NCBI GenBank assembly: GCA_963815095.1 | Contig: CAWFFH010000003.1 | Span: 1,056,001-1,120,000, forward strand | Source: Candidatus Bathyarchaeota archaeon | GTDB taxonomy: Archaea > Thermoproteota > Bathyarchaeia > Bathyarchaeales > Bathycorpusculaceae | Reading direction: 5' to 3' | DNA: 64,000 nt | In this document: positions 20,836-38,040 of the stretch, piece after piece | Layout: every line of letters begins with the position of its first letter | How positions within the stretch are numbered: position 1 is the first letter of the stretch | Notes under the pieces: generated by a model | What the model saw: the letters and a program-made list of their open reading frames with translations, nothing else | Told to the model about the DNA's origin: nothing | The model's database searches: none | Program-made: the position numbers and the translations under genes

Positions 20836-21000
20836 GAACGAGTAAAAGTATTTCGAGAATTATGCATTCAACTGAATATCAACCCTGAAAAATTTTTGTC
20901 ATCAAAATAAACTTGGACTTTTAATAGTTAAGTCTAGAACTAAGTTCTCCACAAATCTTTTCGACTCATTACGGATTTGAAGTTTGGTTATGAGACAGGT

Positions 21001-21687
21001 TTAATTTAGAGTTACTTTCCAAGTCTTTTTTAATCTAACTAAGAGTGCAACTGATAGTGTGAAGATGAATAGGGGTAAAATCATTAACCAAGAAAACTCG
21101 GGAACTGTAGGTGTTGGGTTTGGTGTGGGTGAGGTTGAAGTGGAAGTTTCTGGTATGGTTATTGTATGGGTGTTGCTCCAATCACTTGTATTCACTGCAA
21201 TTACAGGATAGTCATTTGGGTCTATAATGTATGGTATTGGTGCAACAAAAGGAGCGGTGAAATTTGAATATCCATTGATTGCACGAATTTGCATATCGAG
21301 TAGATGACTATTTGAGCTGCCTAATATTTCGTAATAACTGTTGAGTGGGACAATTGTTCTTGTGACGCCAGTAGTGCCTGTTTCAATGATGTATTGACCA
21401 TTCTTTGTTGGGTCAGGTTCGGGATGAATCCAGTTTGTTGATTCATGCCATTTATACCTAAAATCAAAAAAAATCAAAGGGTAATCATGACCATTATCGA
21501 TAACATATTGATTTGAAATTACAATTTCCAGACCACCACCTACTACATAATCTACGATTCTAAGAGTGAATCCGGGAGTAGATAGTTTAGGTATTGTCTG
21601 AGCACTTGCAGATTCAACGATTATTAGGTTTGAACCTGCTAAGATAACTACAAGAAGTAACGAGAACCCCTTGCTAATGCCACCCAT
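21001..21687 (-). CDS. Secreted protein with PEF-CTERM-like sorting signal
   Basis: Signal peptide; SDWSNT.TITIP, Pro/Thr linker, VPEF plus TM plus RLKK. Confidence 0.8.
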   Translation of the reverse strand: MGGISKGFSLLLVVILAGSNLIIVESASAQTIPKLSTPGFTLRIVDYVVGGGLEIVISNQYVIDNGHDYPLIFFDFRYKWHESTNWIHPEPDPTKNGQYIIETGTTGVTRTIVPLNSYYEILGSSNSHLLDMQIRAINGYSNFTAPFVAPIPYIIDPNDYPVIAVNTSDWSNTHTITIPETSTSTSPTPNPTPTVPEFSWLMILPLFIFTLSVALLVRLKKTWKVTLN

Positions 21688-21723
21688 ATTTTACTCTTAG
21701 GATTACTTTGCAATAAAAGACTT

Positions 21724-21769
21724 CTCGTAAAGCTCTCTTGAATAAGCCCAGTCAAAGTTTCTTGACTAA
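21724..21769 (-). repeat. Tandem pair of dif-like sites (copies G, H), inverted relative to A-F
   Basis: Minus strand TTAGTCAA-GAAACT-TTGACTGG and TTATTCAA-GAGAGC-TTTACGAG, followed by CTTTTATTGCAAA exactly as after copy B. Confidence 0.8.
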
Positions 21770-22085
21770 GCTATCCAGTGGCTTTTCAGGTAAATCTGCA
21801 GAAGCAGCCTCATCCAAGCCATAATCTATAGCATAGCGGGATCGATGACAGAACTATAGAAGTTGTTGTTGTTGCTGCTGCAACTGAATTCTGCACACCA
21901 GTTGCAACAACAATCAAACACAAACCCAAATTACCAAGTTTACTCTTAACTGAAACACAAATCAGACCCATAGAAGATAATGATGATGATAATGCAACCC
22001 AATTTGCAAACAACAGTATCATCAATCAAAGAATAAAAATTACAAAATTTTTTTGCAGATGCCTAAGTTTTGGTTAGCCCTATTC

Positions 22086-22100
22086 CGAAACGCTTATATT
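22086..22100 (+). promoter_or_regulatory. BRE/TATA promoter of the aromatic amino-acid operon
   Basis: CGAAACG-CTTATATT about 36 nt upstream of the leader ATG. Confidence 0.6.
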
Positions 22101-22135
22101 TTTTGGCATATGACTGTTTGAACAGGTTCGAAGCA

Positions 22136-22222
22136 ATGTCTATTGCTGAAAGCAAAAATGGTCTCGCAGGTTCACAGTTTCCTAGCTTCGACTACTACTT
22201 TTATTATTACCATTTTCCTTAG
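22136..22222 (+). CDS. Phe/Tyr-rich leader peptide, 28 aa
   Basis: MSIAESKNGLAGSQFPSFDYYFYYYHFP; 5 Tyr and 4 Phe in the last 14 codons; directly upstream of the shikimate/Tyr operon. Confidence 0.8.
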   Translation: MSIAESKNGLAGSQFPSFDYYFYYYHFP

Positions 22223-22260
22223 GCCCAGAACTGAAAAATTTTTTGGGAGCGGTTCTGGGC
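22223..22260 (+). promoter_or_regulatory. Attenuator-like hairpin
   Basis: GCCCAGAACTG / CGGTTCTGGGC 11-bp stem (one G:U) starting immediately after the leader stop; loop contains T6. Confidence 0.7.
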
Positions 22261-22279
22261 GAAACAAGGGTGTACCAAC

Positions 22280-23515
22280 ATGCAAAGTAACAAAAAAATA
22301 GTTGTAAAATTCGGTGGCTCTAGCCTCGCTGACCATGAAAGACTCCTTAAAGCGGTTGTTGCCGTAGTTAATGAAGCTAAAAAAGGCACCAAAATCGCCG
22401 TTGTAGTTTCCGCCATGGGCAAAACCACCGATGTTCTCATGTCCACAGCCAAAAACACATCCAACGGCAAACTTGAAAAACACGAATTAGACGACATCCT
22501 CTCGATGGGTGAACGCACAAGCGTCCGCATATTCTCCGCTGCCTTGAGAAGCAACGGGGCAAACTCCTGTTACTTTGACCCCATCGACAACAACTGGCCC
22601 ATAATTACCGACGCCTTATTCCAAAACGCTAACCCACTTCTAAAAGAATGCGAAAAAAGCATCAGAGAATGTATCTTGCCAATCGTAGAAAAAGGCACCA
22701 TACCCGTCATAGCAGGGTTCGTGGGCAAAACCAAAGACGGCAAAATCACCACGCTTGGCAGAGGAGGAAGCGACACCACAGCATTCATATTAGCAGAATC
22801 CTTAGGCGCCGACCAAGTTGTACTAGTAACCGACGCAGATGGAATTATGTCCGGTGACCCAAAAATCATTGTAAACCCCCAAAGACTCAAAGAAATCGAT
22901 GTTAACACACTCGTGGGTTTAGCAGATTCAGGCGCCAAATTCATCCACAGCAAAGCCTTAAAATACAAGCCAAAAAACATCGATGTCAAAGTCATCAGCA
23001 ACACCCAGAGCGATTTGAGCAGAGAAGGAACCTTAATCACAGGAGCATTAGCTTCGGAACTGGACGCAGAAATAGCGCATCCAACCCCAGTCGCGGAAAT
23101 AACTGTGATTGGAAACGGCATATCAGCAAACCCACAAGTTCTCACGGAAATGGTGGAAAAAGTAAAAGAAAACTCCACCTTACTGGGTATGTCAATGAAC
23201 ACTAACTCGGTAATCCTCTATGTTCCTCAAGAAAAAAACATCGAAACTCTCCTAAATCAAATCCACACGTTAACAATCAGTAACAAAGAAACCATAGCGA
23301 TGGCCGTCAAAAAAGACCTTGTTTTCCTCAAAACCAGCGGAGTGGGACTCGAAGAAACACACGGCATAATCGGCAAAATCAGCGAAGACCTACGAGTCAA
23401 CGGCATAAACATATCAGGCATATTAACTATAACGTCAAGTATCCTGTTGTTTGTAGATTGGAATGAGAAAGAAAAAGCATTAAAGTTAATTAAAAACTCA
23501 CTAAAAACACGTTAA
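22280..23515 (+). CDS. lysC: Aspartate kinase with ACT domains
   Basis: VVKFGGSS, VVVSAMG.TTD, TTLGRGGSDTTA motifs. Confidence 0.95.
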   Translation: MQSNKKIVVKFGGSSLADHERLLKAVVAVVNEAKKGTKIAVVVSAMGKTTDVLMSTAKNTSNGKLEKHELDDILSMGERTSVRIFSAALRSNGANSCYFDPIDNNWPIITDALFQNANPLLKECEKSIRECILPIVEKGTIPVIAGFVGKTKDGKITTLGRGGSDTTAFILAESLGADQVVLVTDADGIMSGDPKIIVNPQRLKEIDVNTLVGLADSGAKFIHSKALKYKPKNIDVKVISNTQSDLSREGTLITGALASELDAEIAHPTPVAEITVIGNGISANPQVLTEMVEKVKENSTLLGMSMNTNSVILYVPQEKNIETLLNQIHTLTISNKETIAMAVKKDLVFLKTSGVGLEETHGIIGKISEDLRVNGINISGILTITSSILLFVDWNEKEKALKLIKNSLKTR

Positions 23516-23524
23516 GGTGAAAAA

Positions 23525-24316
23525 ATGAATTCAGGAAAAACCCGCAGACTAAGAAGAATCATGCAGCAAGATAACCGTACAGTAATTGTGCCTATGGACC
23601 ATGGCGTAACCGTGGGACCCATCCAAGGCATAACCAACATGCAAACCATAACTGACCAGCTGGTCATAGGCGGAGTTGACGCAATCCTAGTCCACAAAGG
23701 CATCGCACAACGTGTCAATACTAACGGAGTAGGATTAATTGTTATGTTATCAGGCATGTCCAACCTCAGCCCCAACATAAACGGCAAAGTCCAAGTATGC
23801 AGCGTGCAGGAAGCCGTACACATCGGCGCAGACGCAGTTGCCGTGCATGTGAACGTTGGTGCGCAAGACGAAGACAAAATGCTTCAGAACCTGGGTAAAG
23901 TCGCCGAAGAATGTGAAGCATTCGGTTTACCACTTTTAGCGATGATGTACCCGCGGGGTCCAAAAATTCCAAGCGAACACGCACCCGAAGTGGTGGCTCA
24001 CGCAGCTAGAATCGGAGCGGAACTTGGCGCAGACATCATCAAAACAAACTACACAGGCAACATTGACACCTTCAAAACGGTAATCGAAAGCTGCCCAGTC
24101 CCAGTGGTCATTGCGGGCGGACCAAAATGCAAATCCCTACAGGAAGTGCTTCAAACCACGAGCGACGCATTGAAAGCAGGCGCCGCAGGGTTATCCATCG
24201 GGCGCAATGTGTTTCAATGTGATAGTCCAATGCAACTTTCAAAAGCGCTCTCTGTCATCGTTCACAAAGGCGCATCTGTTGAGCAAGCTCTAAAAATTCT
24301 CGGTGAAAAACGTTGA
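23525..24316 (+). CDS. aroA': 2-amino-3,7-dideoxy-D-threo-hept-6-ulosonate (ADH) synthase
   Basis: IVPMDHG, AMMYPRG, GADIIKTNYTG, VVIAGGPK class I aldolase motifs; operon context. Confidence 0.9.
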   Translation: MNSGKTRRLRRIMQQDNRTVIVPMDHGVTVGPIQGITNMQTITDQLVIGGVDAILVHKGIAQRVNTNGVGLIVMLSGMSNLSPNINGKVQVCSVQEAVHIGADAVAVHVNVGAQDEDKMLQNLGKVAEECEAFGLPLLAMMYPRGPKIPSEHAPEVVAHAARIGAELGADIIKTNYTGNIDTFKTVIESCPVPVVIAGGPKCKSLQEVLQTTSDALKAGAAGLSIGRNVFQCDSPMQLSKALSVIVHKGASVEQALKILGEKR

Positions 24317-25353
24317 AGGAACTCTGGCTAGAAATAGATCCAAATGCATCGCCTCAAGAAAAGGAGGGTTTACTTAGCCTTGCTCTCGAAAATGCTGACG
24401 TAGTTTTAGAAAATAACCAAGCTACCAATCGTAATGGCAAATTAGACATAACTTTTCTTTCGGATTTAAATGAGAAAAAAATCACTCAACTAAAAAAAGA
24501 AGGCAAGAAAACCGCCCTTCATGTAGTTATCCAAGGCAAAGAGGATGAGAACAGAGCAGCCAAAGCTGCAGAACTTAGTGTTAACTATGTAATAATAAAC
24601 TGCCTTGATTGGCGAGTGATTCCTCTTGAAAACTTAATTGCGAAAGGCAGAGGAAAAAGCGTCCTAATTGCTGAGGTAAATACAGCAGAGGATGCCAAGG
24701 TGGTTTTGGAGGCACTTGAACTGGGAACTGACGGAGTGCTCCTTAAGACTGGGAAACTAAATGAATTGGAAAAAACCATAAAAATCATCAAAGCACAAGC
24801 GCAAAAGATGGCGTTAACGCCAGCGAAGATTTTGTCCATAAAGCCAATTGGTTCAGGAGCAAGAGTTTGTGTTGATACTGTTGATTTGATGTGTCCCGGC
24901 GAAGGAATGCTTGTGGGTTGCCAGTCTGCTGGCTTCTTTTTAGTTGAAGCTGAAGTAAACGAGAACCCCTACGTACAGTCTCGACCTTTCCGCGTGAACG
25001 CTGGACCAGCATCACACTACACTTTAACTTCAACGCAGAGCACACGTTACCTCTCCGAACTCAAGGCAGGAGACGAAGTTTTAATTGTCAACCGAGAAGG
25101 CAAAGTCAGATTAACAAACGTTGGCAGATCCAAAATAGAGTTCCGTCCCCTAATCCTAATCGAAGCCCAAGCCGACGACACAAAAATCAAAACCATCCTT
25201 CAAAACGCCGAAACCATTCGCCTAGTCACACCAAAAGCATCTAAACCCGTCACAGAACTAAAACCCAATGATGAAGTCCTTGTGCATTTATCGGCGAAGG
25301 GAGGAAGACACTTCGGCATATCTGTGCCTGAAGAAACGGTGATAGAAAAGTGA
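24313..25353 (+). CDS. aroB': 3-dehydroquinate synthase II
   Basis: DWRVIPLENLIA, RVCVDT, RPFRVNAG, LQNAETIRL motifs. Confidence 0.93.
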   Translation: MKELWLEIDPNASPQEKEGLLSLALENADVVLENNQATNRNGKLDITFLSDLNEKKITQLKKEGKKTALHVVIQGKEDENRAAKAAELSVNYVIINCLDWRVIPLENLIAKGRGKSVLIAEVNTAEDAKVVLEALELGTDGVLLKTGKLNELEKTIKIIKAQAQKMALTPAKILSIKPIGSGARVCVDTVDLMCPGEGMLVGCQSAGFFLVEAEVNENPYVQSRPFRVNAGPASHYTLTSTQSTRYLSELKAGDEVLIVNREGKVRLTNVGRSKIEFRPLILIEAQADDTKIKTILQNAETIRLVTPKASKPVTELKPNDEVLVHLSAKGGRHFGISVPEETVIEK

Positions 25354-26033
25354 CCCCGAGAATCTGCGTTTCGATTCTCACAAAAAACAACATAGACGCA
25401 TTAAAACTAATTGAGCAAGCAGAACAAGCCAAAGCCGACCTAATCGAAATAAGGCTTGACCGTTTCGAAATTTCCCGCAGACTATCTGATCTTTCTGCAA
25501 GCACAAAAATTCCCCTAATCGCCACCAATAAACTTCAAAGCGAAAAAGGCTTCTTCACTGGAACTGAGTCTGAACGGCAACAAACCCTTCTTAACGCCGC
25601 CAAGAACGAATTTGAATACGTTGACATTGACCTGTCAAGCCCAAAATACAAAGAAACCATTGAGAAACTAAAGCAGTCTGGCACCAAAACAATCGCTTCC
25701 TACCACAAATTCAACGGCACACTCAACGTATCTGCAATGGAGGCAGTTCTTGACGAGGAGATTGCAAGCGGCGCCAGCATATGCAAAATTGTAACAACCG
25801 CCAAACAAATCGAAGACAACCTTCCTGCTTTGAGCTTTGTCTCATTTGCCTCAAGCAAAGCTAAACTGGTGTGTTTCTGCATGGGCGAACACGGCAAAAC
25901 CTCAAGGCTCCTATCGCCGCTTTTCGGTGCATTTTTTACTTTCGCTTCACTTGAACAAGGTAATGAAACAGCGGCTGGGCAGATGAGCATCAGCGAAATG
26001 AGGGCTGCATACAGTCTCTTGGGGATAAAATAA
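25350..26033 (+). CDS. aroD: Type I 3-dehydroquinate dehydratase
   Basis: DLIEIRLD, IASYH, KIVT, FCMG..GK.SR, AAGQ motifs. Confidence 0.9.
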   Translation: MTPRICVSILTKNNIDALKLIEQAEQAKADLIEIRLDRFEISRRLSDLSASTKIPLIATNKLQSEKGFFTGTESERQQTLLNAAKNEFEYVDIDLSSPKYKETIEKLKQSGTKTIASYHKFNGTLNVSAMEAVLDEEIASGASICKIVTTAKQIEDNLPALSFVSFASSKAKLVCFCMGEHGKTSRLLSPLFGAFFTFASLEQGNETAAGQMSISEMRAAYSLLGIK

Positions 26034-26896
26034 TGGATATCTCGGGAAAAACACGTGTTTGTGGAGTTATTGGCGACCCAATAGAACACACTCTCAGCCC
26101 AATAATGCAAAATGCCGCATTCAACTCCCTTAAACTGGACAGCACATTCTTAGCCTTCAAGGTTAAGCCTGCTGAGCTCGAAAACGCAGTAAACGGTATG
26201 CGCGCCCTAAACATCCGGGGATTAAACGTAACCATGCCGCATAAAAGCGCAATTCTAAAATTTTTAGACAGAGTCGACTTATCAGCCCAAATCATAAACT
26301 CCGTCAATACCGTCTTGAACAAGGAAAGCAAACTTTTCGGCTTCAACACAGACGGCGTAGGCGCATTAAAGGCACTAAGAGAAAATGGTGTGGAACTGAA
26401 AGGCAGAAAAGTTTTGTTGCTCGGTGCAGGAGGATCTGCAAGAGCCATAGCATACGCAATGGCTAAAGAATCCGATGAACTCGCAGTTTTGAACCGAACT
26501 CTAAAACCAGCCCAAGAATTAGCAAAACTACTTGAAAAAACGGCTAACAAAAAAATAGTTGCAGGCTCACTCTCGCCAAAGGAAATCCAGCACAACCTCC
26601 AAGACTCAGACATTCTAATCAATGCTACATCTGTTGGAATGAAACCGAAAGCCGACGAAAGCCTTGTTGCTCCGAAACTTTTGAGATCTAATTTAGCAGT
26701 ATTGGACATTGTTTATAATCCGATTGAGACAAAACTGGCGAAAGAAGCTAAAGTAGCAGGAGCTAAAGTGGTCAGCGGAGTTGAGATGCTGATTTATCAG
26801 GGCGCTGCGTCCTTTGAAATCTGGACAGGAAAATCTGCTCCAGTTGAAGTTATGAGGCAGGCAGCACTTAATCATTTGCAGAAGGTGCAACTTTGA
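26033..26896 (+). CDS. aroE: Shikimate dehydrogenase
   Basis: GDPIEHTLSP, NVTMPHK, NTDG, GAGGSARA motifs. Confidence 0.95.
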   Translation: MDISGKTRVCGVIGDPIEHTLSPIMQNAAFNSLKLDSTFLAFKVKPAELENAVNGMRALNIRGLNVTMPHKSAILKFLDRVDLSAQIINSVNTVLNKESKLFGFNTDGVGALKALRENGVELKGRKVLLLGAGGSARAIAYAMAKESDELAVLNRTLKPAQELAKLLEKTANKKIVAGSLSPKEIQHNLQDSDILINATSVGMKPKADESLVAPKLLRSNLAVLDIVYNPIETKLAKEAKVAGAKVVSGVEMLIYQGAASFEIWTGKSAPVEVMRQAALNHLQKVQL

Positions 26897-27762
26897 ATGG
26901 GAAAGCAATAGCTATTGCTCATGGGGCTGCAACAATCGTAAACGCGATTGCACTGGGGAAAGGTGCAGCGTTTGGAGTTGATTTATGGACTCGAGCAGAA
27001 GTTCAATTAACCAATGAACCAGGTCTTTTCCGAGCTGAAATTGTATCTGACCCAAAAGAAAGCACGCTTCTAATAGAAAAAACCGCGGCAAGAATTCTTC
27101 AAAGGTTTAATTTAGAGAAGAATTTTGGCGCAAAAATAAAAACACTATCAAACATCCCAATCGCAAGGGGACTCAAAAGCAGCAGCGTAGCAGCAAACGC
27201 CACAGCACTCGCAACTACGGCAGCTCTTGACAAAACCCTTGACGACCTCGAGATTGTAAAGTTGGGTGTCGAGGCGGCTTTTGATGCTAAAGTTACCATT
27301 ACCGGCGCATTTGACGATGCATGTGCCTCATACTTCGGCGGGATAGTAATTACCGATAACTTCAAACGGGAAATAATCAAACAGTTGCCGTTCCCCAAAA
27401 ACTTAGTGGTGCTATTCCATGTTCCGACCCAAAAGGCCTACACTGCTGACTCTAATGTAAATAGACTAAAAACCCTCAAACCGTTGGTTGAAGTCGCCTA
27501 CGAGAAAGCTTTGGAGGGAAAAGTTTGGGAAGCCCTAACTCTTAACGGGTTAATTTATTCTTCAGCTTCCAGTTTTAACACAAAAATTGCCATTGATGCG
27601 TTAGCTGCTGGAGCAGTTGCGGCTGGACTTTGCGGCAAAGGACCCGCTATCTCTGCAGTGGTCCCAAACGACAAAGTCGATGAGGTAAAAGTTGCCTTGC
27701 AAAAATATGAAGGCGAAATATTGCAGTCGCAATTAAATTGTGAGAAAGCCAAGGTGCTATAG
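26893..27762 (+). CDS. aroK: Archaeal (GHMP) shikimate kinase
   Basis: GAATIVNAIA, IPIARGLKSSS, TGAFDDACAS motifs. Confidence 0.93.
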   Translation: MNGKAIAIAHGAATIVNAIALGKGAAFGVDLWTRAEVQLTNEPGLFRAEIVSDPKESTLLIEKTAARILQRFNLEKNFGAKIKTLSNIPIARGLKSSSVAANATALATTAALDKTLDDLEIVKLGVEAAFDAKVTITGAFDDACASYFGGIVITDNFKREIIKQLPFPKNLVVLFHVPTQKAYTADSNVNRLKTLKPLVEVAYEKALEGKVWEALTLNGLIYSSASSFNTKIAIDALAAGAVAAGLCGKGPAISAVVPNDKVDEVKVALQKYEGEILQSQLNCEKAKVL

Positions 27763-27765
27763 AAA

Positions 27766-29064
27766 ATGGTAGATGTATCAATTAAGAAAACTGAAAAGTT
27801 GACCGGTCAAGTTTGTGCGCCATCCTCTAAGTCTTATACACAAAGAATGGTAATCGCCTCTGCCCTCTCTAATGGTACATCAAGAATTTCTAATCCCTTA
27901 TTGTCTGAGGACACAGAAGCCACGTTACGTGCTATCACAGCTTTGGGCGCAAAAACAACGGTCGCGGAAAACTGCTGGATAATCGAAGGCGCTAAAACAC
28001 TGAAGGGCTCAAAAGATCCAATTGACTGCGGCGAATCGGGAGCTACACTTCGTTTCATGATTCCCATAGCTGCATTGGCAACTAATTCTTCCACTTTACT
28101 ATTTAGAGGCTCCATCGAAAAACGACCCGTAGAACCCTTACTTAAAAGCCTCAAAGAACTCGGCGCTAACGCATATGTTGGAAAAATCGACGGGAAAGAT
28201 GCAGTTTTTGTGGAAGGCAGCGGCATAGTTGGAGGCGAAACATCAATTTCAGGAGATATTAGTTCCCAGTTCATTTCTGGTTTAATGTTTGCTTGCCCAA
28301 AGGCTGAGGTGGACACGGAAATTATGCTAACTTCCCCTTTGGAGTCAGCAGACTATGTTAAGATGACTCAAGTGGTTCTGGCTGAACATAAAATTAAAGT
28401 GCCCGCACACGAAAATCACGTTCATATCCCCGCAAACCAAACCTACATACCCAAAGATGGTGGAGTCCCAGGCGATTTCTCTTCCGCTGCTTTTCTTCTC
28501 GCTGCCGCAGCAATAACCAACTCTAAAGTCCAACTAAACAACCTCAATTATGGCAGCATTCAGGGCGATAAAGCCATCATGGGCACCCTCAAGCACATGG
28601 GCGTTGAGGGAAAAGTCTGCAACGACAGTGTTGAAATTGGAGGCACTGGCAACTTACTCAAACCCGTTGAGGTCGATGCAAAAAATATTCCTGATCTTGT
28701 CCCAGCTATAGCTGTGCTGGCATCTTACGCAAAAGGTACCTCTCATATCTTTGGTGCTCACAGGCTTCGGCTTAAAGAATCTGATCGTCTTGAATCGCTT
28801 TACCTTGAATTAACGAAGATGGGAGCAAAAATTGCTATCAACAATGATGGTTTAATAATTGAGGGCGGTTCACCCTTACACGGTGCAGTTATAGATCCTC
28901 ATAATGACCATCGAATCGCCATGGCATGCGCAGTTGCCGCTTTAGGTGCAGAAGGCGAAACCATAATCCAAAATGCAGAGTGCGTCAGAAAGTCTTATCC
29001 ACAATTCTTCATTCATCTAAAACAGTTAGGAGTTGACTTAGTTGGCGGGAAATTCGATAGGTAA
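27766..29064 (+). CDS. aroA: EPSP synthase
   Basis: SKSYTQR, GESGATLRF, SSQFISG, KESDR, DHRIAMA motifs. Confidence 0.95.
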   Translation: MVDVSIKKTEKLTGQVCAPSSKSYTQRMVIASALSNGTSRISNPLLSEDTEATLRAITALGAKTTVAENCWIIEGAKTLKGSKDPIDCGESGATLRFMIPIAALATNSSTLLFRGSIEKRPVEPLLKSLKELGANAYVGKIDGKDAVFVEGSGIVGGETSISGDISSQFISGLMFACPKAEVDTEIMLTSPLESADYVKMTQVVLAEHKIKVPAHENHVHIPANQTYIPKDGGVPGDFSSAAFLLAAAAITNSKVQLNNLNYGSIQGDKAIMGTLKHMGVEGKVCNDSVEIGGTGNLLKPVEVDAKNIPDLVPAIAVLASYAKGTSHIFGAHRLRLKESDRLESLYLELTKMGAKIAINNDGLIIEGGSPLHGAVIDPHNDHRIAMACAVAALGAEGETIIQNAECVRKSYPQFFIHLKQLGVDLVGGKFDR

Positions 29065-30145
29065 AGAATTCATTGTTACAACGTTTGGCGAGAGCCATGG
29101 CAAAGTTGTTGGCGTAGTTGTGGATGGTTGTCCAGCTGGCTTGCCACTTTCCGAAGCTGATTTTCAGGAGGAGCTTGACCGCAGGATTCCAGCAGAACCC
29201 AAAATTGTTTCTGAACGAGTCGAAAAGGACGTTGCCAGGATTCAAAGTGGGGTTTTTAATGGTTTCACAACTGGCGCTCCAATCGCGATGATGGTTGAAA
29301 ACAAAGAAACCAACTCAAGCGACTACGAAGCCATCAAAGACCTGCCAAGACCCGGACACTCCGATTACCCAGCCCGCATCAAATACGGCGGCTTTAACGA
29401 CTACCGAGGTGGTGGACGCTTCTCAGGCAGAGTCACAGTAGCACTAATCATGGCAGGCACTATAGCCAAAAAACTACTTGGCAGATATAACATCGACGTT
29501 TTAGCTTATACCCAATCGATAGGCGCAATAAAAACTGATAAAAAATTCAGCGCCACAGAAATCCGCAAAAACAAAGAAGCAGCCGCAACCAGGTGTCCAG
29601 ATTTAGAGTGTGCGGAGAAGATGGAGGAAGCCATAATCAACGCGCGAAAAGAAGGTGAGAGTCTTGGCGGAATTATCGAATGTATGGGGCTGAATATGCC
29701 TCCAGGAATTGGTGAGCCACTGTTTGACTCGTTGGACGCAGATTTGGCGAAAGCAATATTTTCGGTTCCCGCAGTGAAGGGCGTGGAATTTGGAGCTGGG
29801 TTTAAGGCAGCAGAGTTGACAGGTTCACAAAACAACGACTCTTTCCTATTAAAAGACGGCAAAGTTTTGACTTCCACCGAGAATGCAGGTGGAATACTAG
29901 GCGGCTTATCCAGCGGCATGACCATCGTGATGCGTGTGGCCATTAAACCGACGCCTTCGATATCAAAAGAACAGAAGACCGTTAACCTATCCTCGATGCA
30001 GAATGCTGCCATAAGCGTTAAAGGCAGACACGACCCCTGCGTAGTTCCAAAAGCCGTCCCAGCTATCGAAGCAGCAGTTGCCATAACCTTAGCTGACCAC
30101 ATGATACGCTCAGGTTACATACCTAAAGCCCTCAAGGAGCACTAA
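29042..30145 (+). CDS. aroC: Chorismate synthase
   Basis: FGESHG, PRPGHSD, GGGRFSGR, GRHDPC motifs. Confidence 0.95.
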   Translation: MAGNSIGKEFIVTTFGESHGKVVGVVVDGCPAGLPLSEADFQEELDRRIPAEPKIVSERVEKDVARIQSGVFNGFTTGAPIAMMVENKETNSSDYEAIKDLPRPGHSDYPARIKYGGFNDYRGGGRFSGRVTVALIMAGTIAKKLLGRYNIDVLAYTQSIGAIKTDKKFSATEIRKNKEAAATRCPDLECAEKMEEAIINARKEGESLGGIIECMGLNMPPGIGEPLFDSLDADLAKAIFSVPAVKGVEFGAGFKAAELTGSQNNDSFLLKDGKVLTSTENAGGILGGLSSGMTIVMRVAIKPTPSISKEQKTVNLSSMQNAAISVKGRHDPCVVPKAVPAIEAAVAITLADHMIRSGYIPKALKEH

Positions 30146-30147
30146 GC

Positions 30148-30408
30148 ATGGCTGAAATCCCACAGCTAAGAAAAAAAGTGGACGAAGTCGATGACCAAAT
30201 CTTAACAGCACTTTGCGAAAGAGTCAAAATTTGTAAGGCAATTGGCAACGCGAAGAAAAAGCAAGGTTTGCCAATTAAAGATACGTCGAGGGAGAATGAT
30301 GTTTACAAACGCATCAGTGAAAAAGGTACCCAATTAGGGCTTGATTCAGGTCAGGTTGAAGCGGTTTACCGCGAAATAGTTAATATGTGCAGTGCCGTTC
30401 AAGAATAA
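30148..30408 (+). CDS. Chorismate mutase (AroQ type)
   Basis: LRKKVDEVD.QI...L.ER......IG..K......D..RE motif. Confidence 0.9.
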   Translation: MAEIPQLRKKVDEVDDQILTALCERVKICKAIGNAKKKQGLPIKDTSRENDVYKRISEKGTQLGLDSGQVEAVYREIVNMCSAVQE

Positions 30409-31519
30409 AGCGCTCTTAACGGAGAGTCCAAACTGTATGCTCTACGAGATAAACGAGAAAGCCCTCAAATTGGAAAGTGAAGGAAAAAAGATAATTCGAT
30501 TAAACCTTGGCGACCCAGACATGGCTACGCCGCCTGAAATCGTGGAAGCAGCATACGCTTCTATGAAAGCTGGAAAAACCAAGTATTCCTCTTCATATGG
30601 CGAGTTGAAGCTACGACAGAAAATCGCTGAAGTTCATGGCGTTAAAGCAGAAAACGTGGTTATTACGCCTGGTTCAAAATGGGGCATATTCGCCACGATG
30701 TTTTTGATGCTCAAAAACGGCGGCAACGTAATAATTCCCACGCCATACTGGACAGCTTACGATTTAATAGCAAAAAGCTTCGGCGCAAAAACAAAATTGC
30801 TTCGAACAGAAATGGCAGACGGCTGGAAAATCGACCTCGACAAGCTAGAAGGGTTAATTGACAAAGAAACCAAAATGATTATTCTTAATAACCCAAACAA
30901 CCCAACCAGCAAAGTCATAGACAACAAAACCCTCGACGGCATTGTGGAGTTGGCAAACAAAAAAGGCGTCAACATACTCTCAGACGAAGTTTACGGCGCA
31001 ATCAGCTTTGTTAAAACCAAAAGTATTCTCGACTATGATGGCGAATGCAAACATGTTCTCTCAAACGGGTTCTCAAAAACCTTCACCATGACGGGTTGGC
31101 GCATCGGCTACTTAGTAGCAAACAAAATGCTCGTTGACAACATAACCAAACTCAACCAAATCACCATAAACAACGTACCTGTCTTTATCCAAGACGCAGC
31201 CCTCAAAGGCTTAGAACTGCACAAACAAATCGCCTCCTCAATCAAAGCCAAATACAAGACACGCGCGGACCTCGCCAGCACTAAACTCTCCACCGCAGGA
31301 CTAAAATTCACCAAACCCGACGCACCCTTCTACGTCTTCCCCAAACTTGATGGTTTAGACGGCGACAAATTCACGCTAAACCTGCTCGATAAAGGCGTTG
31401 CAGTGGCTCCCGGCTCATCGTTTGGAGACTATCGCGAACACTTCCGCATCTCCCTAACCGCACCAGACGACCAAATCGAACAAGGTCTGAATAAAATCTG
31501 CGAGGCCATTGCTAAATGA
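30392..31519 (+). CDS. Class I PLP aminotransferase (aromatic/aspartate)
   Basis: NNPNNPT, SDEVY, GFSKTFTMTGWRIG motifs. Confidence 0.9.
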   Translation: MPFKNKALLTESPNCMLYEINEKALKLESEGKKIIRLNLGDPDMATPPEIVEAAYASMKAGKTKYSSSYGELKLRQKIAEVHGVKAENVVITPGSKWGIFATMFLMLKNGGNVIIPTPYWTAYDLIAKSFGAKTKLLRTEMADGWKIDLDKLEGLIDKETKMIILNNPNNPTSKVIDNKTLDGIVELANKKGVNILSDEVYGAISFVKTKSILDYDGECKHVLSNGFSKTFTMTGWRIGYLVANKMLVDNITKLNQITINNVPVFIQDAALKGLELHKQIASSIKAKYKTRADLASTKLSTAGLKFTKPDAPFYVFPKLDGLDGDKFTLNLLDKGVAVAPGSSFGDYREHFRISLTAPDDQIEQGLNKICEAIAK

Positions 31520-32388
31520 GGATTGCCGTAATCGGCGCGGGAAAAATGGGCGTTTGGTTCGCCAAATTCTTTCTCGCTAAAGATTACGATGTTGTATTGG
31601 CTGATCGAAACAAACAGAAACTCGAGAATCTGAAAGATTTGCTTGTGGATTTAACGACCAACTTCCAAGAAGCCGCAACGGACGCTGACCAAATCTACCT
31701 TTGCGTATCCATAAACGCAATTGAGGAAGTCGTTAAAACAATCAGTCCAGTCCTGCATGAAGGTCAGGTCGTTATGGACATATGCTCAATCAAAGATGCC
31801 CCGGTCAAAACCATGCATCAATACATCAAGGGCGCAACTGTGTTGGGGACGCACCCTGTTTTTGGTCCAGGAAGCAACGGCGTTAAACACAAAGCCTATG
31901 TTTTTACGCCTACAAATTCCGAAGAGAATGAGTTAGCTGAGCATTACAAACAGTGGCTTGCGAAGGAAGGAGCAAACGTTTTCATTATGACTCCTAAAAA
32001 ACACGACGAATTGATGTCGGTCGTTTTGGGGTTGCCACATTTTCTTGGCTTAGTGGCCTGCGAGACCTTACTTGAACAAAAGAATCTTTCTGAAACTAAG
32101 AAAGTCGCTGGAACAACTTATCGAATGCTGTTTACGCTGGCAGAAGCGACGGCGCTGGAAACTCCAGACCTGTACGTTGCCGTACAAACGAGTCTGCCAG
32201 AACTGGGAAACATCGAAGACACCTTCATGACTAAAGCCCAAGAACTACTCACCCTAATAAAGAACAAAGACACCAAAGCAATCGTCGAGCGCATGGAGCA
32301 ACTAAAAAAGAAGCTCAAGGAAACCGACAGTGACTTCACAAAATCATACGAAACCATGTACAAAATGCTGGAATCCACAGAAAAATAA
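31516..32388 (+). CDS. tyrA: Prephenate/arogenate dehydrogenase
   Basis: GAGKMG, DICSIK, HPVFGP, HDELMS.V.GLPH motifs. Confidence 0.92.
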   Translation: MRIAVIGAGKMGVWFAKFFLAKDYDVVLADRNKQKLENLKDLLVDLTTNFQEAATDADQIYLCVSINAIEEVVKTISPVLHEGQVVMDICSIKDAPVKTMHQYIKGATVLGTHPVFGPGSNGVKHKAYVFTPTNSEENELAEHYKQWLAKEGANVFIMTPKKHDELMSVVLGLPHFLGLVACETLLEQKNLSETKKVAGTTYRMLFTLAEATALETPDLYVAVQTSLPELGNIEDTFMTKAQELLTLIKNKDTKAIVERMEQLKKKLKETDSDFTKSYETMYKMLESTEK

Positions 32389-32444
32389 ACCGTCACAGAT
32401 AAACTCAAGTAACCTTTTCTACTTTTATTAGTTGAGCTGTTTTT

Positions 32445-32798
32445 ATGGAATGGAAAAAAGCGCCTATTGAGCTTGTAGATTTTATTAACGAAAAAATGAA
32501 AGATAAAAACTGCGATTACAAAAAAATGTTCGGTTACCCCGCCTACTTTTTTAACGGTAACATGTTTGTTGGGGTTCACGGCGACAAACTTTTTCTGCGG
32601 CTCTCCGAAGCCGACACAGCAGAAATAATGAAGGATTGCAAGGATGTAACTGCCTTTGAGCCCATGCCGGGAAGAGCAATGAAAGGATACGTTGTTCTCC
32701 CCAAACCTATTTACTCTGAAGATAAACTTTTCACAGAGTGGCTCGACAAATCAATAAAATATGTTGCCTCGCTGCCGCCCAAAAAAGGAAAAAAGTAA
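32445..32798 (+). CDS. TfoX N-terminal domain protein
   Basis: KKMFG..AYF.NGNMF, FEPMPGRAMKGYV, LPPK motifs. Confidence 0.85.
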   Translation: MEWKKAPIELVDFINEKMKDKNCDYKKMFGYPAYFFNGNMFVGVHGDKLFLRLSEADTAEIMKDCKDVTAFEPMPGRAMKGYVVLPKPIYSEDKLFTEWLDKSIKYVASLPPKKGKK

Positions 32799-32799
32799 C

Positions 32800-33618
32800 T
32801 CAATAGGTAGCTTTGGGGTATGAACCTAAGATTTTGATAAACGTTGCATACTTTTCTAATGCCTTTAATGCTTCGGCACATTTGGCTTCAGTTCGGTGTC
32901 CTTCAAAGTCAAGGTAAAAGTTGTATTCCCAGGCGGTTTTCTTGGTAGGTCTGGATTCGATGCGTGTCAGGTTGATGTTTCGTTTAGCGAATTCTCCAAG
33001 TGCATTGTAGAGTGAGCCGGGTTCATGTTTGGCTGAGAAGATGATGCTGGTTTTGTCTTTGCCTGTTGGGGCTGAATCTTCTTGTGATAAAACAAAGAAG
33101 CGCGTGTAGTTTTCTTTGTTGTCAGCTATGTCTTTGGCTAAGATTTGCATCTCGTAGAGTTCGGCGGCTCGTTGGCTGGCTATGGCTGCGGCGTTTAGGA
33201 GTTTTTGTTCTTTGATTATTTTGACGCTGCCCGCTGTGTCATAGGCTGGAATGATTTCCCATTTCATTTTTTCAAGGTAGTTTCGGCACTGGGCTAAAGC
33301 TTGAGGATGAGAATAGACCAATTTGATTTGATCTATAGTAGTGCCCTTGTTTACGATTAAGCAATGTGCTACTCTTACAACGACTTCTCCATAGACTTTA
33401 AGATCATAGTTGAAGAAGAGGTCGTAGTTCTGATTGATACTGCCTTCCAATGAATTCTCCACTGGCACCACACCAGACGCCACAGCTTTTTGCTTCACTT
33501 TTTCGAATACGTCGCGGAAGTCTCGACAAGGTTTAGCTTGCACCGTTTTACCGAAAAAATGGTAAACTGCCGCTTCGCTGTATGCGCCAGGTTCGCCTTG
33601 GAAAGCTACGTTTTTCAC
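32800..33618 (-). CDS. pheA: Prephenate dehydratase
   Basis: VAFQGEPGAYSE, ENSLEG, SHPQALAQC, NYTRF, IESRP (ACT domain), LGSYP. Confidence 0.95.
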   Translation of the reverse strand: MKNVAFQGEPGAYSEAAVYHFFGKTVQAKPCRDFRDVFEKVKQKAVASGVVPVENSLEGSINQNYDLFFNYDLKVYGEVVVRVAHCLIVNKGTTIDQIKLVYSHPQALAQCRNYLEKMKWEIIPAYDTAGSVKIIKEQKLLNAAAIASQRAAELYEMQILAKDIADNKENYTRFFVLSQEDSAPTGKDKTSIIFSAKHEPGSLYNALGEFAKRNINLTRIESRPTKKTAWEYNFYLDFEGHRTEAKCAEALKALEKYATFIKILGSYPKATY

Positions 33619-36183: not shown

Positions 36184-36680
36184 TTTTTCATTTTTCCTTT
36201 CAAGTTCTCTATTAATCCGCCATCTGCCAATATTTCTAGGATGAATGGTGGAAGTTTTTCAACTTGGAATTTTTTGCCGTTTGAAGAGTTCTCGATTTTG
36301 CCCGCCTCAAAGTCAACAACTAATTCTTCGCCTGTTTCCACTGCGCTTGATATGCCTTTGCATTCGATTACAGGTAAACCAATGTTTATGGCATTGCGAA
36401 AAAAGATACGGGCAAACGATTCAGCGATTACGCATTTGACGCCTGAGTACTTCAAAGCTAAAGGAGCCTGTTCCCTGCTAGAGCCGCAACCAAAGTTTTT
36501 GCCGCCAACTAATATTACACCTTTTTTTGCTTTGTTGACGAATTCGGTGTCTAAGCTTTCTAAGGCATGTTTGGCTAACTCGCAGGGGTCAACTAAGATC
36601 AGGTATTTGCCTGGTAGGATGACGTCTGTGTCTATGTTGTTGCCGAATTTTATGGCTGGTGCTTTGATTTTGCTGTTCAT
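36180..36680 (-). CDS. leuD: 3-isopropylmalate dehydratase small subunit
   Basis: IDTDVILPG, NFGCGSSREQA, SFARIFFRN. Confidence 0.93.
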   Translation of the reverse strand: MNSKIKAPAIKFGNNIDTDVILPGKYLILVDPCELAKHALESLDTEFVNKAKKGVILVGGKNFGCGSSREQAPLALKYSGVKCVIAESFARIFFRNAINIGLPVIECKGISSAVETGEELVVDFEAGKIENSSNGKKFQVEKLPPFILEILADGGLIENLKGKMKK

Positions 36681-37945: not shown

Positions 37946-38040
37946 AGTTTCTCTTACCTTTGAATTAACCTAAATATTACTAAGATAAATGGGAGTTTTA
38001 AAGAACAAGCAATTAAGTATTTCCGCTTTATCGATGCTGT

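What the first reader, a model, noticed from the sequence alone, without database searches (positions are those of the whole stretch)
22136..22222. Phe/Tyr-rich leader peptide upstream of the aromatic amino-acid operon: candidate ribosome-mediated attenuation in Archaea
Seen: between a BRE/TATA (22086-22100) and lysC lies ORF MSIAESKNGLAGSQFPSFDYYFYYYHFP, with 9 of its last 14 codons Phe/Tyr in mixed synonymous forms (TTT/TTC, TAC/TAT). The operon it heads makes these products (ADH synthase through chorismate mutase, aminotransferase and TyrA). Known: cognate-codon-rich leader peptides are the hallmark of bacterial attenuation (pheL, trpL, hisL); archaea couple transcription and translation, but to my knowledge leader-peptide attenuation is not established there. 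Inference: ribosome stalling when Tyr/Phe-tRNA is uncharged switches this 10-11 gene operon on.
Basis: partly seen in the sequence, partly recalled or inferred. Interest (0 to 1): 0.92.

Follow-up and report, generated by a model that had tools for sequence, protein, structure and literature searches.

The report
Phe/Tyr leader ORF before archaeal aro operon
A tiny upstream gene whose tail is almost all phenylalanine and tyrosine codons, followed at once by a conserved RNA hairpin, sits in front of the aromatic amino-acid operon in many uncultured archaea, and looks like the leader-peptide sensors that so far are known only from bacteria.

Summary
The window comes from a Bathyarchaeia genome. 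The ORF at 22136-22222 (28 codons, 9 Phe/Tyr among the last 14) lies between a conserved BRE/TATA-like box and an 11-gene operon: aspartokinase, the archaeal shikimate pathway, chorismate mutase, an aminotransferase and TyrA.

An equivalent ORF precedes the orthologous aspartokinase gene in:
- all 27 orthologous loci of the first sample;
- all 80 further loci of the same genus-level group;
- 32 of 59 loci drawn across the class (13 families; a 14th, f5, comes from the first sample);
- 8 of 20 loci from other classes of the phylum.

The N-terminal part varies freely but is never interrupted by a stop. The tail stays Phe/Tyr-rich with both synonymous codons. The stop codon abuts a stable hairpin (P2) in every lineage. 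A second helix (P1) pairs the 5' UTR with the codons just before the aromatic run.

No bacterial-type terminator/antiterminator pair exists, and the aspartokinase ribosome-binding site is not sequestered. The best reading is a translated Phe/Tyr-sensing regulatory leader. How it switches the operon is inferred only. No RNA data, no Rfam or Pfam family and no paper describing it were found.

The parts
22085..22101 (+). BRE/TATA-like box CCGAAACGCTTATATTT; predicted promoter of the leader and operon
   Evidence: Sequence. Nearly invariant in the 24-sequence alignment A1 and present in the longer rows of A3. Function and transcription start not tested. By the usual archaeal spacing (recalled) the start would fall near 22120-22126.
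22124..22134 (+). 5' UTR: AGGT (Shine-Dalgarno-like, 22124-22127) and the P1 5' strand TCGAAGC (22128-22134)
   Evidence: GGTTCGAAGC is at least 90% conserved. An AGG/GGT/GGA/GAG lies 4-16 nt upstream of the uORF start in 92 of 92 family-f1 leaders. RNAalifold pairs it with 22185-22191.
22136..22222 (+). Leader ORF (uORF), 28 codons, MSIAESKNGLAGSQFPSFDYYFYYYHFP, stop TAG at 22220-22222
   Evidence: The ATG is invariant in A1. The frame is kept in 92 of 93 leaders. There are 0 of 92 in-frame stops in the variable part.
22184..22219 (+). Aromatic tail (S F D Y Y F Y Y Y H F P), including the P1 3' strand GCTTCGA at 22185-22191
   Evidence: Tail composition is 37% Y and 27% F over 93 leaders, with both synonymous codons used. 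The last aromatic codon lies 1-3 codons from the stop in 124 of 124 distinct tails.
22223..22260 (+). Hairpin P2: 5' arm 22223-22233, loop 22234-22249 with A5 then T6 (22239-22244), 3' arm 22250-22260
   Evidence: covariation. Unique in the genome. A T-run of at least 4 lies inside P2 in 76 of 84 genus-type leaders, and of at least 5 in 60 of 84.
22268..22272 (+). Shine-Dalgarno GGGTG of the aspartokinase gene, unpaired in the predicted folds
22280..32388 (+). Regulated operon: aspartokinase (22280-23515), ADH synthase, DHQS-II, aroD, aroE, shikimate kinase, aroA, aroC, chorismate mutase, aminotransferase, tyrA (31516-32388). Genes overlap or lie at most 9 nt apart.
   Evidence: ORF coordinates; Pfam assignments.

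Best explanation
The 28-codon ORF is a translated cis-regulatory leader (uORF) of the aspartokinase-aro-tyrA operon. It reports the supply of charged tRNA-Phe and tRNA-Tyr through the position of the ribosome that reads it.

Shown:
- The ORF, its start and its frame are conserved, while its N-terminal sequence is free to vary.
- Its last 10-12 codons are Phe/Tyr-rich in every lineage.
- Its stop codon abuts a stable hairpin (P2) that ends a few nucleotides before the kinase's ribosome-binding site.
- In family f1 a second helix (P1) pairs the 5' UTR with the codons just before the aromatic run.

Inferred geometry:
- A ribosome waiting at a hungry Phe/Tyr codon in the run (A site 4 or more codons before the stop) covers the 3' strand of P1 and leaves P2 free to fold.
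- A ribosome that reaches the stop must hold the whole 5' arm of P2 unpaired. It may linger there, because many leaders end in Pro-stop.

Inferred output (my best guess, about 0.3 on its own): P2 is a protective hairpin. When Phe/Tyr are plentiful, the terminating ribosome keeps P2 open. The U-rich loop and 3' arm then emerge single-stranded behind RNA polymerase, and transcription ends early, through the oligo-U tract and/or the FttA/aCPSF1 termination factor. This happens before a ribosome can load on the kinase gene. When Phe/Tyr-tRNA is scarce, P2 folds as soon as it is made, hides that stretch, and the operon is read through.
For: Conservation of the leader:
- Present in 27 of 27 orthologous loci from 41 related genomes. 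It is absent before the 3 paralogous lysC-type hits.
- Present in 80 of 80 further loci at 73-98% kinase identity; one uses GTG and one is partly masked by N.
- Present in 32 of 59 usable loci across the class, scored as at least 6 aromatic residues in the last 14 and reached by at most 4 of 200 shuffles. These fall in 13 families; family f5 makes 14.
- Present in 8 of 20 loci from other classes of the phylum.

Coding signature without peptide constraint:
- The first ATG/GTG after the 5' motif is in frame with the Ser-Phe anchor in 92 of 93 leaders, at three different spacings (42, 45, 48 nt).
- There are 90 distinct N-termini.
- TTT/TTC counts are 178/115 and TAT/TAC counts are 250/151.
- Stops in the variable part: frame 0 in 0 of 92, frame +1 in 48 of 92, frame +2 in 55 of 92. 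Entropy shows no 3-nt periodicity.

Structure:
- RNAalifold finds P1 and P2.
- On 98 sequences, 87.7% of cells pair against 25-47% when the partners are slid. 11 pairs carry double changes against 6.2 +/- 1.1 in shuffles, and 0 of 500 shuffles reach the observed value.
- P2 starts 0 nt after the stop in 68 of 87 genus-type leaders, and within -3 to +6 nt in all 122 folded leaders. Median energy is -16.6 kcal/mol.

Output step:
- T-runs of at least 5 follow 39.7% of 914 long ORFs in this genome, against 17.1% of random 60-mers.
- The genome has a full-length FttA/aCPSF1 (TIGR03675, 902 bits, cut-off 580).
- Published passages define an FttA terminator as RNA -1 to -36, with U at -23 and U-rich RNA at -30 to -36 (PMC11616081). 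With the RNA 3' end at 22275-22276, the T6 of the P2 loop falls at -32 to -38, a U of the 3' arm falls at -23, and the 3' arm lies inside the stretch that would have to be single-stranded.
- Enterobacterial pheL also ends Phe-Pro-stop, and Pro-stop is slow to decode (PMC3082878 passages). 37 of 124 distinct tails here end in Pro.
Against: - No transcript, ribosome or start-site data exist. No RNA run was listed.
- No mutually exclusive alternative pairing was found under simulated ribosome positions.
- The consensus scan finds no hairpin-plus-T terminator in the window leader, nor in two other families' leaders.
- The oligo-U tract sits in the loop only in the window's genus group. It is missing in 8 of 84 of those leaders. 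In several other families (f7, f11, f14, parts of f1) a short U-run follows the hairpin instead. That fits a hairpin acting as a negative, terminator-like element better than a protective one.
- An aromatic codon always lies 1-3 codons from the stop. A ribosome stalled there would open P2 during starvation.
- The trp, his and ilv/leu operons of the same genome carry no cognate-codon leader, so this is not a general device of the organism.
- The genomes are related, so the counts overstate independence.
- My ORF picker selects for aromatic tails. The shuffles control for this, but the positional statistic is partly biased by it.
Confidence: 0.6

Rival explanations
1. Same Phe/Tyr-sensing leader, but P2 is the negative element: a terminator-like or roadblock hairpin, in some lineages followed by a short U-run. 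A ribosome held on the last aromatic codon(s), 1-3 codons before the stop, covers the base of its 5' arm and so prevents it. Starvation therefore turns the operon on by direct ribosome shielding, with no antiterminator.
For: The last aromatic codon is at -1 (24), -2 (89) or -3 (11) from the stop in 124 of 124 distinct tails. P2 begins -3 to +6 nt from the end of the stop in all 122 folded leaders. The strong G-C pairs of P2 (GCCCAG/CTGGGC) are at its base. In f7, f11/g38, f14 and f1/g20, g24, g25 the hairpin is followed by U3-U6 just before the Shine-Dalgarno (sequences printed).
Against: Under starvation a ribosome should be held first at the earlier codons of the run, 12-33 nt further upstream, where it leaves P2 intact. 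A ribosome pausing at Pro-stop in replete cells would also open P2, which gives the wrong sign. The window's genus has no U-run after P2 (0-2 U in the 10 nt after it in all 87). The terminator scan finds nothing. The statistic is partly biased by how the ORFs were picked.
Confidence: 0.2
2. The leader acts after transcription. One version is termination-reinitiation or a shunt-like transfer of ribosomes across P2 to the kinase start. Another is stabilisation of the operon mRNA by a ribosome stalled near its 5' end, with P1 acting as a gate on leader translation.
For: P2 brings the leader stop and the kinase Shine-Dalgarno close together: 0 nt before the hairpin and 6-9 nt after it in the window, and 12-22 nt from hairpin end to start codon in most lineages. 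P1 encloses the leader start, so stalling should keep the leader ribosome-binding site open.
Against: The kinase Shine-Dalgarno is unpaired whether or not P2 forms. Masking the 5' arm lowers its predicted accessibility no more than in controls whose stem pairs were permuted. Genus group: real 0.53 against control 0.41. Others: real 0.38 against control 0.345. Only 1 of 72 and 1 of 34 fall in the lowest 5% of their controls. Coupling by reinitiation would raise expression when Phe/Tyr are plentiful, which is the wrong sign for a biosynthetic operon.
Confidence: 0.12
3. The ORF is not a codon-counting sensor. Either the aromatic nascent peptide arrests the ribosome in response to free Phe/Tyr (TnaC-like); or the peptide is a functional small protein or peptide precursor; or the region is an untranslated RNA or DNA motif bound by a regulator.
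For: Ser-Phe-(Asp/Glu/Gly)-Tyr and the nucleotides AGCTTCGA are nearly invariant within family f1, including third codon positions. Many leaders end in Pro-stop, as TnaC is said to (passage). GGTTCGAAGC and AGCTTCGA form an inverted repeat that could also be read as DNA sites.
Against: Across families only the composition (Phe/Tyr) is kept, not the sequence. No modifying enzyme or transporter gene lies in or beside the operon. The open frame, the start codon and the spacing in multiples of three are maintained through 90 different N-termini. The invariant nucleotides are explained by P1, which shows compensatory changes in other genera. There is no Pfam family and no Rfam family.
Confidence: 0.08

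Closest known systems
Enterobacterial pheL-pheA leader-peptide transcription attenuator, and its relatives trpL, hisL, thrL, leuL
   Same: A short ORF lies directly upstream of the biosynthetic genes for the amino acids whose codons it is rich in. Peptide sequence and length vary while the regulatory codons are kept. A helix involves the leader coding region. Many copies end Phe-Pro-stop, as enterobacterial pheL ends UUC_CCC_UGA (PMC3082878, passages seen).
   Different: This is Archaea, not Bacteria. It mixes Phe and Tyr codons. There is no 1:2 / 2:3 / 3:4 set of alternative hairpins, only P1 and P2. There is no hairpin-plus-U-run terminator in the window. The regulated operon holds the whole archaeal ADH-type shikimate pathway plus a dedicated aspartokinase.
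Factor-dependent attenuation governed by a leader ORF in bacteria (tnaC with Rho; leader ORFs that change access of Rho to the RNA)
   Same: The working model has the same logic. The ribosome's position at or near the leader stop decides whether a termination factor can use the RNA just downstream. Archaea have a functional analogue, FttA/aCPSF1, which binds U-rich nascent RNA and is proposed to police transcription-translation coupling (PMC11616081, passages seen). This genome encodes it.
   Different: Here the ribosome at the stop would expose the factor's site rather than mask it, and a hairpin would hide it. Dependence on the factor is entirely untested. The description of the bacterial systems is recalled, apart from the mentions in the passages.
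Cognate-codon uORFs of Actinobacteria (polycysteine leaderless short ORFs of mycobacteria; the ilvB uORF of Corynebacterium)
   Same: Short ORFs with runs of cognate codons near their 3' end act as amino-acid-responsive attenuators of the operon downstream, without the classical enterobacterial hairpin set. I saw only the search listings and abstracts: 10.1101/834739 and PMC10272879.
   Different: They belong to a different domain of life. I did not read how those systems work. In the present case sequestration of the downstream ribosome-binding site was tested and not supported.

Membership tests
Bacterial-type amino-acid leader-peptide transcription attenuator | Short ORF just upstream of a biosynthetic operon, enriched in codons for that operon's product | tested here: met
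   9 of the last 14 codons are Phe/Tyr. 0 of 1000 shuffles reach this. The tail averages 64% F+Y over 93 leaders.
Bacterial-type amino-acid leader-peptide transcription attenuator | The ORF is translated | tested here: inconclusive
   In silico only. Frame kept in 92 of 93 leaders. In-frame stops in 0 of 92, against 48 and 55 of 92 in the other frames. A Shine-Dalgarno-like AGG/GGT lies upstream in 92 of 92. No RNA or ribosome data.
Bacterial-type amino-acid leader-peptide transcription attenuator | Mutually exclusive terminator and antiterminator hairpins, chosen by ribosome position | tested here: not met
   Only two independent helices, P1 and P2, are found. Consensus folds with the ribosome footprint masked at the stop, at Tyr -9 and at Phe -2 give no conserved alternative within the transcript.
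Bacterial-type amino-acid leader-peptide transcription attenuator | Intrinsic terminator (G+C-rich hairpin followed by a U-run) before the first structural gene | tested here: not met
   0 terminator-like sites in window 21900-22400, and 0 in the leaders of L174 and L151. The oligo-T lies in the P2 loop, not after the stem.
Bacterial-type amino-acid leader-peptide transcription attenuator | Downstream expression rises when the cognate amino acid or charged tRNA is limiting | not testable with these tools
   Uncultured lineage; no RNA run listed.
Translational attenuation by ribosome-binding-site sequestration (erm/cat-type leaders) | The downstream Shine-Dalgarno or start is paired in one state and freed by the stalled ribosome | tested here: not met
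   The Shine-Dalgarno is unpaired in minimum-energy folds. The change in accessibility on masking the P2 5' arm is no greater than in pair-permuted controls.
Factor-dependent (FttA/aCPSF1) premature termination controlled by a leader ORF | The factor is present, and a U-rich single-stranded site lies about 30-36 nt behind the polymerase | tested here: inconclusive
   An FttA orthologue scores above the curated cut-off. The T6 in the P2 loop sits 31-36 nt before the kinase start region, which fits the published definition. The tract is absent in 8 of 84 leaders and placed differently in other families. Dependence on the factor is untested.
Known RNA families (Rfam 15) and protein families (Pfam-A) | A match to a curated model | tested here: not met
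   No relevant Rfam match in window 21000-23500 at E up to 1; there were only three chance-level microRNA/snoRNA hits near 21860-21960. No Pfam family for the peptide at E up to 10. The exact peptide is not in the 15-billion-protein collection.
Ribosomally made peptide precursor or functional small protein | A conserved core peptide and neighbouring maturation or transport genes | tested here: not met
   Only the composition is conserved between families. The neighbours are shikimate-pathway enzymes.

The most novel reading that the evidence does not exclude
This is the first ribosome-mediated (leader-peptide) attenuation system of Archaea. It is old and widespread, found in at least 14 families of Bathyarchaeia and in three families of other classes of the phylum. 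It is built differently from the bacterial ones. A single hairpin abuts the leader stop and hides a U-rich stretch from the archaeal termination machinery (oligo-U and/or FttA). A ribosome that finishes the leader therefore exposes a terminator, and a ribosome starved of Phe/Tyr-tRNA lets the hairpin fold and the operon run.
Probability: 0.3. Interest if true: 0.92.

Novelty: new variant of a known kind. Interest (0 to 1): 0.82.

Why it matters
[quoted passage not shown] A 2021 paper stated that no example of transcription attenuation or antitermination was known in archaea (PMC8448881, passage seen). My six literature searches found none since.

A conserved, sequence-defined candidate makes the question directly testable. 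It comes with about 120 natural variants, two helices with compensatory changes, and a clear set of mutations to make. The question is whether archaeal ribosomes steer RNA polymerase or its termination factor FttA.

It also shows how uncultured Bathyarchaeia may regulate an expensive pathway. And it suggests that systematic searches for cognate-codon uORFs in archaeal genomes are worthwhile.

Tried and rejected
- Known families: there was no relevant Rfam hit in the leader, in the other leader type or in the ilvB leader. No Pfam family matched the peptide. The exact peptide is not in the protein collection.
- Expression: the look-up of sequencing runs listed no RNA holder for window 21800-25800.
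It was not tried again.
- A general leader-peptide habit of this genome was rejected. There is no Trp-rich ORF before trpE and no His-rich ORF before hisG. The ILV-rich ORF at window 40495-40584(-) before ilvB occurs in 1 of 30 loci only, the window's own. The genome-wide scan for single-residue-rich short ORFs was too noisy to use beyond showing that the aro leader tops the F/Y/W list.
- The ribosome-binding-site sequestration switch was rejected. A first pass with whole leaders showed no difference between 'ribosome at stop' and 'stalled' (medians 0.52 against 0.52 in 89 genus-type leaders, 0.42 against 0.46 in 35 others). A local pass showed a drop outside the genus (0.64 to 0.35; 18 of 38 fell by more than 0.3). 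Controls with permuted stem pairs fell as much or more. About 14 leaders without a recognisable Shine-Dalgarno plus in-frame start were dropped. 4 more whose hairpin reached the Shine-Dalgarno, or started late, were dropped.
- Alternative pairings were rejected. The 5' strand of P1 can pair with GAAC(T) of the P2 5' arm over only 5-7 bp, by my reading of the sequence. Consensus folds under masking gave only pairings with the untranscribed promoter region.
- A bacterial-type terminator was rejected for the window: 0 sites, and 0 in L174 and L151.
- Rows dropped elsewhere:
  - One search left out 21 of 104 loci (no exact GCTTATA, or N) and collapsed 83 to 70 distinct sequences.
  - Alignment A3 left out L097 (N) and, by my choice, L026 and L027 (different hairpin), as well as duplicates, giving 98 rows.
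  - lost 1-2 of 94 rows to my regular expressions.
  - lost 4 loci with short upstream DNA.
  - L184 had no upstream DNA.
  - The start-codon distances are bimodal because my start finder sometimes took an ATG inside the Shine-Dalgarno region, so I do not use them.
- Supplements of papers were closed and not requested. Those of the archaeal Ribo-seq papers could list uORFs that I could not see.
Full report
WHAT IS THERE. Window 22136-22222 (+) is an ATG-started ORF of 28 codons, MSIAESKNGLAGSQFPSFDYYFYYYHFP, with stop TAG. Nine of its last 14 codons are Phe or Tyr, and both synonymous codons of each are used. CCGAAACGCTTATATTT lies upstream at 22085-22101, and AGGT lies 8 nt before the ATG. 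An inverted repeat starts directly after the stop. Its arms are 22223-22233 and 22250-22260, and its 16-nt loop reads A5 T6 GGGAG. Then come GAAACAA, GGGTG (22268-22272) and the ATG of a 411-codon gene at 22280.

That gene is an AA_kinase + ACT protein. The next ten genes overlap or lie at most 9 nt apart. They are a DeoC-type aldolase (ADH synthase), 3-dehydroquinate synthase II, type I dehydroquinase, shikimate dehydrogenase, a GHMP-type kinase, EPSP synthase, chorismate synthase, chorismate mutase, a class I/II aminotransferase and prephenate dehydrogenase. A dedicated aspartokinase fits this pathway, because ADH synthase uses aspartate semialdehyde (recalled, not tested). Record titles of near-identical loci name the organism group as Candidatus Bathyarchaeota/Bathyarchaeia, Bathy-6 or 'Bathycorpusculum' type. 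The assembly is 2.69 Mb with 41.7% G+C.

IS IT MORE THAN CHANCE. None of 1000 dinucleotide-preserving shuffles of the 400 nt upstream of the kinase gene gave an ORF with as aromatic a tail. In a genome-wide scan it was the only short ORF upstream of a long ORF with 8 F/Y/W in 10 residues. The hairpin occurs once in the genome.

CONSERVATION. I searched 41 related genomes with the kinase. All 27 loci whose kinase is at least 52% identical have an equivalent ORF. The 3 weaker, lysC-type hits do not. A scan of one genome per species returned 80 more loci at 73-98% identity, and all 80 have it; one uses a GTG start and one is partly masked.

Across the class, 130 of 301 genomes had a kinase hit at E up to 1e-90. 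I fetched 60 loci chosen across families, and 59 had upstream DNA. Of these, 32 have an ORF with at least 6 aromatic residues in its last 14 that at most 4 of 200 shuffles reach:
- families with the leader: f1 10/10, f7 3/3, f11 2/3, f14 3/3, f30 3/3, f27 3/3, f37 2/3, f17 1/5, and one each in f16, f19, f28, f32, f34;
- families without it: f26 0/8, f35 0/8, f31 0/3, f15 0/1, f33 0/1.
With f5, that makes 14 families. Outside the class but inside the phylum, 8 of 20 fetched loci have it: f58 3/3, f62 2/2, f47 3/6. The counts for f52 (0/4), f44 (0/3), f66 (0/1) and f71 (0/1) were negative. Examples from other families, as printed, are MFFDFFYYYFYFE...KAYRYYYYRFF, MFGYFYFYYFGP and ...VFGFFYGFYFYFYFGP. 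These genomes are kin, so the counts are not independent events.

TRANSLATED OR NOT. Within family f1 (94 distinct leaders, 93 parsed), the first ATG/GTG after the conserved 5' motif is in frame with the Ser-Phe anchor in 92. The distance takes three values (42, 45, 48 nt). The N-terminal part gives 90 different peptides. The tail is 37% Tyr and 27% Phe, with TTT/TTC at 178/115 and TAT/TAC at 250/151. In the variable part no sequence has a stop in the leader's frame (0 of 92), while 48 and 55 of 92 have one in the other two frames. Column entropy shows no three-base periodicity. So selection keeps the frame open and the tail aromatic, but does not care which amino acids come first. This is what is expected of a leader that must be translated but whose product is unimportant. 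It is not expected of a functional peptide or of an untranslated motif. The peptide matches no Pfam family and has not been called as a gene in the protein collection.

RNA STRUCTURE. RNAalifold on 24 sequences predicts two helices.
- P1 pairs TCGAAGC just before the ATG (22128-22134) with GCTTCGA, the Ser-Phe-Asp codons at 22185-22191.
- P2 is the hairpin after the stop.
On 98 distinct sequences, 87.7% of cells form pairs, against 25-47% when the partners are slid by 1-3 columns. Eleven of 21 pairs show changes on both sides, against 6.2 +/- 1.1 in shuffles, and 0 of 500 shuffles reach that.

Other genera keep a P1 of different sequence (12 bp in L142, 13 bp in L147). P2 begins exactly after the stop in 68 of 87 genus-type leaders, and within -3 to +6 nt in all 122 folded leaders from all families. 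Its sequence differs completely between families. Predicted energies run from about -6 to -35 kcal/mol (median -16.6 in the genus). It mostly ends 12-22 nt before the kinase start, leaving the Shine-Dalgarno unpaired. Rfam has no family for the region.

WHAT THE GEOMETRY IMPLIES (inference). I take a footprint of about 12-15 nt on either side of the A site (recalled).
- A ribosome waiting at the first Tyr codon (nine codons before the stop) covers the 3' strand of P1 and ends about 14 nt short of P2.
- A ribosome with the stop in its A site covers the entire 5' arm of P2.
- A ribosome at the last aromatic codon covers the first 4-5 nt of P2. That codon is 1-3 codons from the stop in 124 of 124 distinct tails.
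- Thirty-seven of the 124 tails end in Pro. A paper on pheL states that Pro-stop is slow to decode and that enterobacterial pheL ends UUC_CCC_UGA.

HOW IT MIGHT SWITCH THE OPERON. The bacterial scheme does not apply.
- I found no alternative hairpins under simulated ribosome positions.
- The consensus scan finds no hairpin-plus-T terminator.
- A switch that hides the kinase Shine-Dalgarno is not supported. Accessibility falls on masking the 5' arm no more than in controls with permuted stem pairs. In the window's genus the real sequences keep the site more open than the controls do.

This leaves transcription or RNA fate. In this genome oligo-T runs mark gene ends: T5 or longer within 60 nt after 39.7% of 914 long ORFs, against 17.1% of random 60-mers. 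A T-run sits at a fixed place in the P2 loop: at least 4 T in 76 of 84 leaders, at least 5 T in 60 of 84, starting 15-18 nt into P2 in 69 of the 76. The genome encodes FttA/aCPSF1.

Passages of the FttA structure paper describe its terminator as nascent RNA -1 to -36, with U at -23 and U-rich RNA at -30 to -36. They propose that FttA acts when coupling to the ribosome lapses. With the polymerase at 22275-22276, just before the kinase start is made, the T6 lies at -32 to -38, a U of the 3' arm lies at -23, and the 3' arm lies inside the stretch that must be single-stranded.

My preferred model is therefore that P2 protects. If it folds (ribosome held back in the aromatic run), the U-rich stretch is not available and transcription runs on. 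If a ribosome sits on the stop, the stretch is exposed and transcription ends. This gives the expected sign, is compatible with Pro-stop, and explains why the hairpin fills the gap up to the ribosome-binding site.

I rate the model at about 0.3, for three reasons. The U-run follows the hairpin instead in f7, f11, f14 and parts of f1. Eight genus-type leaders have no T-run. The always-present aromatic codon next to the stop fits the rival 'ribosome shield' model, in which P2 is inhibitory.

COMPARISON WITH WHAT IS KNOWN. It works like a bacterial cognate-codon leader peptide (pheL type), but it fails two defining structural features of that family, so I do not file it as a member. Literature searches found bacterial systems only. 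The search terms were:
- leader peptide / attenuation / archaea / aromatic amino acid;
- archaeal / leader peptide / transcription attenuation / uORF;
- attenuation / archaea / FttA / translation coupling;
- archaea / attenuator / leader peptide / ribosome stalling / tryptophan, from 2019;
- Bathyarchae / leader peptide / attenuation / uORF;
- archaeon / ribosome profiling / uORF / amino acid biosynthesis / leader, from 2018.
Passages of two archaeal Ribo-seq papers mention uORFs only in general. Blombach et al. [quoted passage not shown] I saw only listings, abstracts and the quoted passages of these papers, and no supplements.

VERDICT. That it is a translated regulatory leader sensing Phe/Tyr supply is well supported by comparative evidence (about 0.6-0.8). 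How it acts is open. It is a new variant of a known kind of regulator, in a domain where none has been described.

Noticed in passing
Loci L156-L163 (family f26), L166 and L168 (f35), L195-L197 (f31); upstream of the orthologous aspartokinase gene: These families lack the Phe/Tyr-rich uORF. They carry another conserved leader with the core TTTTCGGTGATGGCGTTTAC, which reads LFGDGVY in a short ORF such as MGDRLFGDGVY.... In f26 it is enclosed by a long-range helix GCAGGTGA...TACCTGC. There is no Rfam match. It may be a second, riboswitch-like or arrest-peptide-like type of aro leader.
   Followed up: partly
Window about 40266-40480, minus strand (5' leader of ilvB, which is 38553-40265): A core of about 55 nt, AAGAGGCAnGAAcATGAGGGATCGTCACCTCAATAGCTGGGATCGTCGGGTAC, is nearly invariant in 23 of 23 genus loci. 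It holds the direct repeat GGGATCGTC twice, and lies 110-165 nt before ilvB and downstream of a TATA-like CTTTTTATTT. It is conserved at all codon positions, so it is more likely an RNA element or protein site than the short ORF it can be read as. No Rfam match.
   Followed up: partly
Window 40495-40584, minus strand: An ORF with an Ile/Leu/Val-rich tail (MQKYLGKRSKSKLELTVLLLCQVIILYRL) lies 229 nt before ilvB and looks like a branched-chain leader peptide. It is present in the window's own genome only (1 of 30 loci), so it is probably chance.
   Followed up: yes
Own genome G000 contig C3:30919-30963, before trpE (30964-32403): The trp operon (trpE to trpA, 30964-36804) has no Trp-rich uORF. 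The 45-nt gap after a small upstream ORF holds TGTACAtttttGTACtgg next to a TATA-like ccttaaataaa. This recalls the TGTACA boxes of the archaeal repressor TrpY; the comparison is recalled and not tested.
   Followed up: no
Window 32800-40265, minus strand: Prephenate dehydratase (pheA, 32800-33618) is the last gene of a cluster whose 5' end is ilvB. Between them lie ORFs that look like ilvN, leuC, leuD, leuB or ilvC, and a LeuA/CimA-type synthase. Only the last two genes were run against Pfam. So Phe synthesis is split from the Tyr branch and sits outside the leader-controlled operon.
   Followed up: no
Family f14 loci L174-L176, hairpin after the leader stop: The post-stop hairpin of this family (AAGCTTCGAAACC.../...GGTTTCGAAGCTT) uses nearly the same palindromic GCTTCGAAGC motif that forms helix P1 in the window's family, but in the other position. 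This may be chance or a shared recognition element.
   Followed up: no
Own genome G000 contig C3:1184775-1186658: A full-length FttA/aCPSF1 orthologue (TIGR03675, 902 bits) is present, and two shorter beta-CASP paralogues lie elsewhere. Oligo-T runs are enriched after long ORFs genome-wide.
   Followed up: partly
Window about 21830-22000: Runs of trinucleotide repeats (GTT/GCT on the plus strand, then GAT) lie between the divergent 228-codon ORF with no Pfam match (21001-21687, minus strand) and the leader promoter. They gave only chance-level microRNA/snoRNA hits in Rfam.
   Followed up: no
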